A stretch of 24,402 nucleotides of DNA from an uncultured archaeon (GTDB lineage Archaea > Asgardarchaeota > Lokiarchaeia > Sigyniarchaeales > SOKP01): the NCBI GenBank assembly GCA_964583985.1, contig CAZOYD010000051.1, positions 1 to 24,402 of the forward strand, written 5' to 3'. The notes under the pieces were generated by a model, which saw only the letters and a list, made by a program, of their open reading frames with translations, did no database searches and was not told the DNA's origin. Within the stretch, counting starts at the first letter, position 1. Every line of letters begins with the position of its first letter. Below are positions 16,182 to 18,899 of this stretch, piece after piece. A program made the position numbers and the translations under genes.

Positions 16182-16217
16182 AGATAGCAAAAAGTTTTTA
16201 GATCCTTTTTTCTTATT

Positions 16218-16542
16218 ATTAATTGGGAAATGATGAAGGAGCTATTGTCGCAAAAACGAGGACATGCACGAAAAAAGATGAATGCACGTGCAAATTTTTG
16301 CGCACATCCTGAATTTAAATAATCAATACTAATACTGCATAATAAATGGGCTCTTTACCTAGCTATGGTGTGTACCTTTGCAATGAGGCTTGAGTCAGTC
16401 ACCCAGCGTGCAGACATGATTATGTCCCAAAACGGCATAGAAATTATAGCCTAGCACGAGAGAACTTTTTTGATTACTTGGTATGACCTTGATATGATAA
16501 AAGCGTGTTAGTGTTTTAGGCGACAATATATGCTCAATTAAT
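16218..16542 (+). ncRNA. Candidate ~325-nt structured non-coding RNA of unrecognised family
   Basis: Visibly more GC-rich than other spacers and lies between convergent genes. Nested end-to-end helices: 16218-27/16533-42, 16243-51/16520-28 (perfect 9 bp), 16253-57/16513-17, 16261-67/16503-09. Internal helices: 16288-93/16298-303, 16320-26/16470-76, 16351-69/16443-62, 16413-17/16422-26. Mismatches are mostly G-U on the + strand. Confidence 0.6.
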
Positions 16543-16554
16543 TAAATTGAAATG

Positions 16555-17025
16555 CTAAAGCAGCCCCATTGTGTCAGAACTAAACAGATCTTTTAACTCT
16601 TTATTTAATTCACCTTGATCCGTTTGTAAGTAACGAGATAATATTTGAGAAATTTTAGGAGCAAATCGTTTAATAAGAGCTCTTACAAACCCTATTTGGA
16701 CGTTTTTATCTGAAACAATGCATAAAACTCCTTTTCCTATTTTACCTGAAAATATAAATCCTTTATCATATTCCGTGAATTGTAGTTCTGTAATTCCATA
16801 TCCTAAAATATGTCCTTGTTCTTCTCCTGCAGTAAATACTGCACCTCCAATCGCTCCAATTTTTTCCACGGAAATTTCTTCTTCATTAGAAAACGTGAAT
16901 TTAGATTCACTCATTATGGTTATTCCTGTATCATCGATGATAATAACGTATTTTAACCCGGGAGTGCTCGTAATGATTGTTTTTAAAATTTTTCTTAAAG
17001 CTACCTCATCTTTGGAATAACCCAA
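16555..17025 (-). CDS. Roadblock/LC7 (MglB/LAMTOR-like) domain protein with C-terminal extension
   Basis: YVIIIDDTGITIMS, EKIGAIGGAVFTAG, TEYDKGFIF, VLCIVSDKNVQIGFVR. AGGAG lies 10 nt before the TTG. Confidence 0.88.
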   Translation of the reverse strand: MGYSKDEVALRKILKTIITSTPGLKYVIIIDDTGITIMSESKFTFSNEEEISVEKIGAIGGAVFTAGEEQGHILGYGITELQFTEYDKGFIFSGKIGKGVLCIVSDKNVQIGFVRALIKRFAPKISQILSRYLQTDQGELNKELKDLFSSDTMGLL

Positions 17026-17167: not shown

Positions 17168-17518
17168 TTAAAATAAGTTTTGCGTTCTAATTATATTTTT
17201 TAACATTTTTATGCTATCTTTATGATATTTAGATTTTTCTAATAATAAAAATAAACGATATCGTTTGCCTTTGTCAATATCAAATTTAAGGGGAACTAAA
17301 TTGGGATCCTTAATAGTTAATTCCCTATTCTTCGATACAGCAGAGAGTGCTAATGTATTCTCACGAATCCAAAGTCTTTTTGATATATTTGCACCGATAG
17401 GAAATCCATTACGATCAGTAATCACTCCTGCTACAAAATTAGGAAAATTTTGCTTAATTTTATGTAAAAAATAATTTACTTCAGCTTGTTTGACTAATCT
17501 TGTTGATTCAGACTTCAT
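17168..17518 (-). CDS. Divergent roadblock-like protein
   Basis: FLHKIKQNFPNFVAGVITDRNGFPIGANI matches the roadblock helix1-beta1-beta2 pattern. The rest is shortened and basic. Confidence 0.6.
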   Translation of the reverse strand: MKSESTRLVKQAEVNYFLHKIKQNFPNFVAGVITDRNGFPIGANISKRLWIRENTLALSAVSKNRELTIKDPNLVPLKFDIDKGKRYRLFLLLEKSKYHKDSIKMLKNIIRTQNLF

Positions 17519-18650: not shown

Positions 18651-18899
18651 TTAGCCCATTTTTACGTAGAATTTATTTTCAGGATTGAAATCATAAATGG
18701 AAGTTGTTTTAATTGAAATGAAGGGTAGATTAATCGGTCCAAAAATTTCTTTAATTGAACCAATCTCTTCATAAGATTCAGAATATATTGATTTATACAG
18801 TATTTTTTCTAACGATTTATCCCATCTCTTTGCTCTAAAAATATGATGTTTTTTAGATTCTCCGAGATAGAATAGATTTAATCGAATCCAATTTTTCAA
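18651..18899 (-). CDS. gar1: Gar1/Naf1 family H/ACA RNP protein
   Basis: EIGSIKEIFGPINLPFISIK signature. Directly upstream of tfb, a linkage common in archaea. Confidence 0.82.
   Translation of the reverse strand: MKNWIRLNLFYLGESKKHHIFRAKRWDKSLEKILYKSIYSESYEEIGSIKEIFGPINLPFISIKTTSIYDFNPENKFYVKMG

What the first reader, a model, noticed from the sequence alone, without database searches (positions are those of the whole stretch)
16218..16542. Orphan ~325-nt multi-domain structured RNA candidate between convergent genes
Seen: the 373-nt gap between the cbiO stop and the roadblock stop is far longer and more GC-rich than the other convergent gaps here (0-37 nt), and neither neighbour needs a promoter there. 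The ends pair in four nested helices: ATTAATTGGG/CTCAATTAAT, TATTGTCGC/GCGACAATA, AAAAC/GTTTT and GACATGC/GCGTGTT. These close a junction carrying a hairpin (GATG..GTGCAA-ATTT-TTGCGC..CATC, 16277-16308) and a long second arm (TAATCAA/TTGATTA, then CTCT/AGAG, CTAG/CTAG, CTATGGT/ATTATAG) capped by a further junction with GACAT-GATT-ATGTC. Imperfect pairs are G-U on the + strand and would be A-C on the - strand, which suggests selection on an RNA and not on a DNA inverted repeat. Knowledge: SRP RNA and RNase P RNA have this size and paired ends, but the SRP helix-8 GNRA/AGCAG motif and the GAGGAAAGUCC box are absent. Only loose RNase P echoes occur (GAGGACATGCACG, AAAACGGC, ATAAAAGCGTGTTA). Inference: a new large ncRNA class, or a very divergent member of a known one.
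Basis: partly seen in the sequence, partly recalled or inferred. Interest (0 to 1): 0.85.

Follow-up and report, generated by a model that had tools for sequence, protein, structure and literature searches.

The report
Asgard three-hairpin pseudouridine guide RNA

Summary
Its helices exist in this one sequence, yet fold no better than shuffles (z -0.11) and do not covary in 28 homologues (67.8% paired, 169/500 shuffles as good). A different fold does covary (95.3%, 0/500): three box H/ACA units, each with a K-turn/K-loop and an ANA box. The RNA is found in 118/130 genomes of this Promethearchaeia (Lokiarchaeia) family, and all four H/ACA proteins are encoded. Unit 1 fits 23S U2496 and unit 2 fits U2554 (E. 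coli numbering; top hits of a blind scan). Unit 3 probably serves helix 69 (U1915/1917), by homology only. It has no direct Rfam hit, but other Asgard copies hit both my model and HgcG/Pab40. Differences from Pab40: a basal fourth K-turn, helices closing each unit, and unit 2 apparently re-aimed from U2586 toward U2554, the yeast snR10 site. RNase P and SRP RNAs lie elsewhere in the genome. Expression and activity are untested. This scan already reported the same RNA on other genomes.

The parts
16189..16202 (+). Likely archaeal promoter: purine run (BRE-like) followed by a TATA-like T run, about 30 nt before the conserved GGG
   Evidence: A TATA-like motif 24-32 nt upstream in 46 of 63 homologues, mostly at 29-30; promoter role inferred
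16225..16535 (+). Three-unit box H/ACA guide RNA gene (about 310 nt); ends inferred from conservation
   Evidence: Alignments A1/A2, covariation, model R1 search
16228..16316 (+). Basal box C/D-like kink-turn closing unit 1: C-stem 16228-31/16313-16, bulge 16232-34, GA 16235-36 with GA 16311-12, stem 16238-40/16307-09
   Evidence: C-stem 99% paired with U-A/U-G/C-G exchange, inner stem invariant in A1; both stems show double changes in A2; similar 5' motif in other Asgard copies
16250..16306 (+). H/ACA unit 1: lower stem 16250-54/16297-301, 5' guide CGAGG 16257-61, upper stem 16262-68/16283-89, K-loop GA 16270-71 and 16280-81, 3' guide GCAA 16290-93, ACA 16304-06. Predicted target 23S U2496 (E. 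coli numbering)
   Evidence: Stems 97% and 94% paired with double changes; spacing to ANA 14 nt in 57/63; top target of 1074 U, 1/100 shuffles as high
16319..16423 (+). H/ACA unit 2 with its closing helix (16319-25/16417-23): lower stem 16335-39/16409-13, 5' guide 16345-51, K-turn (UA 16360-61, GA 16385-86), 3' guide CAGU 16396-99 and ACCC 16401-04, ACA 16414-16. Predicted target 23S U2554; residual fit to U2586
   Evidence: Lower stem 98.5% paired, 4 of 5 pairs with double changes; U2554 top hit, 0/100 shuffles; spacing 17-18 for CAG, CCC fixed 9 nt before ANA
16435..16533 (+). H/ACA unit 3 with its closing helix (16435-39/16529-33): lower stem 16449-57/16511-21, 5' guide GAGAG 16458-62, K-turn GA 16472-73 and 16496-97, 3' guide GUUAG 16507-11, ACA 16523-25. 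Predicted target helix 69, U1915 and/or U1917
   Evidence: Stems supported; GAGAG in 60/63 and GUUAGUG in 62/63, spacing 16 for U1915 or 14 for U1917; aligns with HgcG motif 3 via Asgard bridges; not the top hit of the blind scan
18651..18899 (-). gar1 gene (an H/ACA RNP protein) 2.1 kb away; context, not part of the RNA
   Evidence: Pfam PF04410 E 1e-6, just under the curated cut-off

Best explanation
It is a box H/ACA guide sRNA, the Lokiarchaeia-type orthologue of HgcG/Pab40/Afu4. It is transcribed on the + strand from its own TATA promoter (inferred). L7Ae binds each K-turn/K-loop, Cbf5-Nop10-Gar1 docks on each lower stem and ANA box, and the two strands of each internal loop pair with pre-23S rRNA on either side of a uridine, which Cbf5 isomerises to pseudouridine (established mechanism of the class; not shown here). 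Unit 1 aims at U2496 in the peptidyl-transferase centre, unit 3 at U1915/U1917 in helix 69, and unit 2 at U2554 in the A-loop, possibly still also at the ancestral site U2586. The extra basal K-turn and closing helices probably protect the ends and hold the units as separate modules (inference). Shown: conservation, fold, boxes, protein genes, complementarity. Inferred: transcription, protein binding, modification.
For: Fold: 95.3% of cells paired, 20 pairs with double changes, 0/500 shuffles; 93.9% and 49/65 pairs in 64 sequences (alignment fitted to the model); RNAalifold recovers most of it unprompted. ANA boxes in 63/63, 62/63 and 62/63 homologues; unit-1 spacing 14 nt in 57/63, as required for active archaeal guides (14-15 nt, PMC2377435). 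Blind scan over 1074 U: top hits U2496 (1/100 shuffles) and U2554 (0/100) (numbering). Yeast has pseudouridines at 2865 (snR46), 2923 (snR10) and 2258/2260 (snR191) (PMC8307265), which map to these positions by spacing from Um2921 = E. coli Um2552 (inference). One copy in nearly all of 118/130 family genomes. Cbf5, Nop10, L7Ae and Gar1 genes present. Ten Asgard loci found with Rfam HgcG all match model R1 too, E 1e-24 to 3e-3, and the HgcG consensus has the same guide strands in the same order.
Against: No direct HgcG hit in this genome even at E 10; the link is transitive. The genome's own 23S is not assembled, so targets were read on 23S of the same genus. Unit 3's helix-69 site ranks 3rd-4th and is not above shuffles. 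Unit 2's spacing for U2554 is 17-18 nt, outside the Pyrococcus rule. The scan's scoring was my own and its pocket borders were set after I had seen the candidate targets. Target sites are invariant in the rRNAs seen, so guide-target covariation could not be shown within the family.
Confidence: 0.93

Rival explanations
1. Same H/ACA RNA, but unit 2 still acts only on the ancestral site U2586 (or is inactive), and the match to U2554 is a by-product of an internal GGG:CCC helix and of the self-complementarity of helix 92.
For: CCC stays exactly 9 nt before ANA in 53/63, as in other Asgard copies and HgcG where AACCC gives 14 nt for U2586; the 3' strand pairs as well with the U2586 flank (-9.2 against -9.4 kcal/mol); GGGCUC is present in Asgard copies lacking CAG; one homologue (L115) changes GGG and CCC together while no matching flip was seen in 42 rRNAs (its own 23S is missing).
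Against: 5' duplex is far stronger for U2554 (-10.2 against -3.4); CAG is kept in 59/63; homologues in the sister family (L081, L082) lost ACCC and have a canonical U2554 pocket, GGGCG plus CAGC at 15 nt, and L084/L089 also lost ACCC but keep CAGC.
Confidence: 0.2
2. A composite C/D-H/ACA RNA, in which the basal box C/D-like motif recruits Nop5-fibrillarin and guides a 2'-O-methylation or a processing step, as in Pab21 or eukaryotic scaRNAs.
For: The basal motif reads RUGAUG...CUGA in many copies and is conserved; Pab21 carries both a C/D and an H/ACA motif (PMC2377435).
Against: Box C position 1-3 and the U-U pair vary freely; the bases before box D are the ACA box and a paired stem, leaving no free antisense element; no C'/D' pair other than the unit-1 K-loop. 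No methylation-target scan was run.
Confidence: 0.08
3. A new class of large ncRNA, or a divergent RNase P/SRP RNA, folded.
For: The helices can be drawn in this one sequence; no Rfam hit.
Against: No covariation, no folding advantage; RNase P RNA (140 bits, over cut-off) and an SRP RNA match (E 8e-15, under cut-off) lie on other contigs.
Confidence: 0.02
4. A MITE or DNA inverted repeat.
For: An imperfect 10-bp terminal inverted repeat in this genome.
Against: Single copy in the genome, fixed next to the same ORF in the genus, terminal repeat not conserved (44% paired).
Confidence: 0.01

Closest known systems
HgcG / Pab40 / Pf7 / Pho40 / Afu4 three-motif box H/ACA sRNA (Rfam RF00064; PMC2377435, PMC4652768)
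   Same: Three H/ACA motifs in the same order; motif 1 guide strands CGAGG and GCRA, motif 2 ACCC at a fixed distance from ACA, motif 3 GUUA. Pab40 motif 1 modifies P. abyssi U2588 and motif 3 U2016 in helix 69; motif 2 of Afu4/Pf7 is predicted for the P. abyssi 2678 equivalent. 2678-2588 = 90 = 2586-2496, which fits my numbering (inference; no Pyrococcus rRNA was aligned here).
   Different: Below Rfam detection; has a basal fourth K-turn and helices closing each unit 3' of ACA, of which the HgcG consensus shows none for motifs 1 and 3; unit 2 has an AG(Y) insertion giving a CAG guide for U2554; unit 3's 5' guide is GAGAG (matching CUCUC here) and leaves 3-5 target bases unpaired.
Haloferax volcanii sR-h45 (PMC7075261)
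   Same: Its two stem-loops guide Psi2605 and Psi1940/1942 (helix 69), the latter pair through one pocket with an unpaired UNUN: the model for unit 3 serving both U1915 and U1917.
   Different: Two stem-loops and a dispensable linker, no unit-1 equivalent; no sequence comparison was made here.
Yeast snR46, snR10 and snR191 (PMC8307265)
   Same: Guide Psi2865, Psi2923 and Psi2258/2260, the positions equivalent to the predicted targets (mapping by spacing).
   Different: Two-hairpin eukaryotic snoRNAs without K-turns, one RNA per site; no homology to this RNA was tested or is claimed.

Membership tests
Archaeal box H/ACA guide sRNA | Hairpin with lower stem, internal-loop pocket and upper stem (1-3 per RNA) | tested here: met
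   Three units, stems supported by covariation
Archaeal box H/ACA guide sRNA | K-turn or K-loop in the upper stem, 9-10 nt above the pocket | tested here: met
   GA/GA motifs in units 1 and 3; unit 2 has UA, AA or GA opposite GA; about 10 nt from pocket in all three
Archaeal box H/ACA guide sRNA | ANA box just 3' of the lower stem | tested here: met
   63/63, 62/63, 62/63
Archaeal box H/ACA guide sRNA | Bipartite guide complementary to rRNA around a U, 14-16 nt from ANA | tested here: met
   Fully met for unit 1 (U2496, 14 nt). Unit 2 complementary but 17-18 nt; unit 3 14/16 nt but not top-ranked
Archaeal box H/ACA guide sRNA | Cbf5, Nop10, Gar1 and L7Ae encoded by the host | tested here: met
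   (L7Ae E 3e-37 and Gar1 slightly under their cut-offs)
Archaeal box H/ACA guide sRNA | Expressed, binds the core proteins and directs pseudouridylation | not testable with these tools
Rfam HgcG (RF00064) | Score at or above the gathering threshold (77 bits) | tested here: not met
   No match at E 10 in this genome; best Asgard copies 52 bits
Rfam HgcG (RF00064) | Homology: three motifs, same order, same guide strands | tested here: met
   Transitive: ten loci hit by HgcG are also hit by model R1
Archaeal RNase P RNA | Covariance-model match and conserved P4 pseudoknot | tested here: not met
   No match here; real gene on contig C11; the P4-like helix is 79% paired without covariation
Archaeal SRP RNA | Covariance-model match with helix 8 motif | tested here: not met
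   No match here; the only match is on contig C15
Box C/D methylation guide | Free 10-21 nt antisense element before box D or D' | tested here: inconclusive
   By inspection the bases before box D are paired or form the ACA box; no target scan run
MITE | Many dispersed copies with conserved terminal inverted repeats | tested here: not met
   Single copy; termini not conserved

The most novel reading that the evidence does not exclude
In this Lokiarchaeia order, the middle pocket of the ancient Pab40-type guide was re-aimed by a 2-3 nt insertion from U2586 to the A-loop site U2554 (yeast Psi2923, snR10), with dual-fit intermediates (this RNA) and U2554-only end states (L081, L082) all still present; and the basal C/D-like K-turn with the closing helices is an uncatalogued architecture that changes how an H/ACA RNP is assembled. 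That would be a natural series for watching a guide RNA change target, onto a site eukaryotes also modify.
Probability: 0.55. Interest if true: 0.55.

Novelty: new variant of a known kind. Interest (0 to 1): 0.4.

Why it matters
I found no published description of H/ACA guide RNAs in Asgard archaea (library limited to open papers), and Rfam misses this one. It gives specific, testable pseudouridine predictions in the ribosome core of the prokaryotes closest to eukaryotes, at three sites that yeast also modifies, and a model (R1) that annotates the gene in over 100 genomes. The class and mechanism are well known, so the gain is in rRNA-modification evolution and guide-RNA architecture rather than new biology. 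The case also shows that a single-sequence folding z-score (here -0.11) can miss a real K-turn-rich RNA.

Tried and rejected
Rfam scan of the region: nothing significant. Single-strand folding, whole and per unit: no signal. Own 23S rRNA: not assembled. Alternative unit-3 target at L035 2620/2622, top of my scan: dropped because the site differs in L039 and homology points to helix 69. A unit-2 match to AGAGCC at L035 1916 lacks a 3'-guide partner. Search for a helix-92 base-pair flip that would explain L115: none in the 42 rRNAs found. Pyrococcus sequences to check numbering directly: not obtained; two papers on archaeal A-loop and Haloarcula modifications are not held, so whether Psi2554 is known in archaea stays open. 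The pattern scan of genome contigs was mostly chance hits; only two Promethearchaeia records matched model R1. The sigma-70 promoter scan does not apply to archaea; one local pattern search found nothing.

Full report
1. The observation. The gap is 373 nt and slightly GC-rich, the listed helices can be drawn, and Rfam has no significant match. But the + strand folds no better than shuffles (z -0.11). A DNA search found the element at 67-83% identity in 28 other genomes of the genus, next to the same downstream ORF whenever the locus reached it, with or without cbiO, and once only in this genome. So it is under selection and is not a mobile repeat.

2. What it is. The alignment shows three ANA boxes, each just after a short stem, and four tandem-GA motifs. 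A fold of three H/ACA hairpins, each enclosed by a further helix 3' of its ANA box, is 95.3% paired with 20 doubly changed pairs and exceeds all 500 shuffles and all slid controls. I derived it from these same sequences, so the slid control is biased in its favour; but RNAalifold finds most of the helices unaided, and the fold holds in 64 sequences, about 45 of them not used to build it (93.9%, 49 of 65 pairs doubly changed; alignment fitted to the model). Model R1 finds the RNA in 118 of 130 genomes of the family, one full copy each, in 3 of 14 of the sister family and in 10 further Asgard families. A family member is a named Promethearchaeia genome. A TATA-like box lies about 30 nt before the conserved GGG in 46 of 63 copies. 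The genome encodes Cbf5, Nop10, L7Ae and Gar1, the last 2.1 kb away, and has RNase P and SRP RNA matches on other contigs.

3. Targets. The genome's 23S is missing, so I used 23S from the genus and its own 16S, numbered against E. coli. Unit 1: GCAA pairs with UUGC and (U)CGAGG with CCUCG(A) around an unpaired UU; the U is E. coli 2496 and lies 14 nt from ANA in 57 of 63 copies. It is the top of 1074 U, matched by 1 of 100 shuffled rRNAs. Unit 2: AAUGGGC pairs with GCCCAUU and CAG(Y) with (G)CUG around UAC; the U is 2554, top hit, 0 of 100 shuffles. The spacing is 17-18 nt, longer than the 14-15 of active Pyrococcus guides (PMC2377435), though Haloferax guides work up to 19 in that paper's count when ACA is present, and an unpaired UNN is tolerated (PMC7075261, PMC2377435). 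The downstream CCC can extend this duplex or pair at U2586. Unit 3: GAGAG pairs with CUCUC and GUUA or UAGU with the 5' side of the helix-69 loop, putting U1915 at 16 nt or U1917 at 14 nt. This site is not the top hit and not above shuffles, so it rests on homology. The scan's pocket borders were chosen after I had seen the candidates, so its p-values are optimistic.

4. Relation to known RNAs. Rfam HgcG (Pab40) does not hit this genome but hits 14 of 100 Asgard genomes below its cut-off; all ten of those loci that I tested also match R1. The HgcG consensus has the same three motifs in the same order with the same guide strands. Pab40 motifs 1 and 3 modify P. abyssi U2588 and U2016; Afu4/Pf7 motif 2 is predicted for the 2678 equivalent (PMC2377435); the spacing 90 equals 2586-2496. 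Haloferax sR-h45 serves the last two regions, with both helix-69 uridines from one pocket (PMC7075261). Yeast has Psi2865, Psi2923 and Psi2258/2260 (PMC8307265), equivalent by spacing from Um2921; Psi2260 = E. coli 1917 is stated in PMC11077068. So it works like, and by transitive homology belongs with, the Pab40 type, while failing the Rfam score.

5. What differs. (a) A basal C/D-like K-turn closes unit 1 and recurs in other Asgard lineages. (b) Helices close units 2 and 3 behind ACA; where the 5' arm of the third is deleted the 3' arm has decayed too. (c) Asgard copies outside this order read GRGUY-(A)ACCC-N9-ACA, canonical for U2586; this family inserts AG(Y), creating the U2554 guide while keeping ACCC; L081 and L082 have lost ACCC and are canonical for U2554. 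A change of target is the simplest reading but is inferred; one copy (L115) hints at an internal GGG:CCC helix instead. Afu4 motif 2 was once proposed for a site 31 nt before the 2678 equivalent, i.e. about 2555, and that proposal was rejected on spacing rules (PMC2377435), so caution is due.

6. Earlier notes of this scan. I had the H/ACA reading and the three target regions before looking (note). The scan has reported this RNA on many other genomes. Those notes gave me the lead to Pab40/HgcG, which I then tested.

7. Verdict. Confidence in H/ACA guide 0.93; targets U2496 high, helix 69 fairly high, U2554 moderate. Interest 0.4.

Noticed in passing
L023:916-996 (-), G029:C17:42378-42458: A second, partial copy of unit 3 about 500 nt downstream of the full RNA in one genome (E 4e-14).
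   Followed up: no
L115:227-545: Unit 2 has GGG to GCG and CCC to CGC together plus a short deletion; the genome's 23S is not assembled, so internal pairing and target change cannot be told apart.
   Followed up: partly
L041 (G015 23S): Reads GGTTTGGCACCTCG at the PTC, the bacterial form, unlike all other genus 23S: probably a contaminant contig.
   Followed up: no
L035, L040, L130 versus L039, L121, L127: The 23S stretch between the 2500 motif and helix 92 is about 30 nt longer in some family members, a variable insertion near helix 91.
   Followed up: no
window 16555-17025 (-) and 17168-17518 (-): Two small ORFs conserved beside the RNA across the genus (62-89% identity) without a Pfam hit; the 'roadblock' label is unconfirmed here.
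   Followed up: partly
L003:1501-1825: The genome's SRP RNA scores only 67.6 bits, under the Rfam cut-off of 96.5, so it is a divergent copy.
   Followed up: no
L140, L142: Some Asgard HgcG-like loci appear to carry only units 2 and 3, the two-hairpin layout of Haloferax sR-h45.
   Followed up: no
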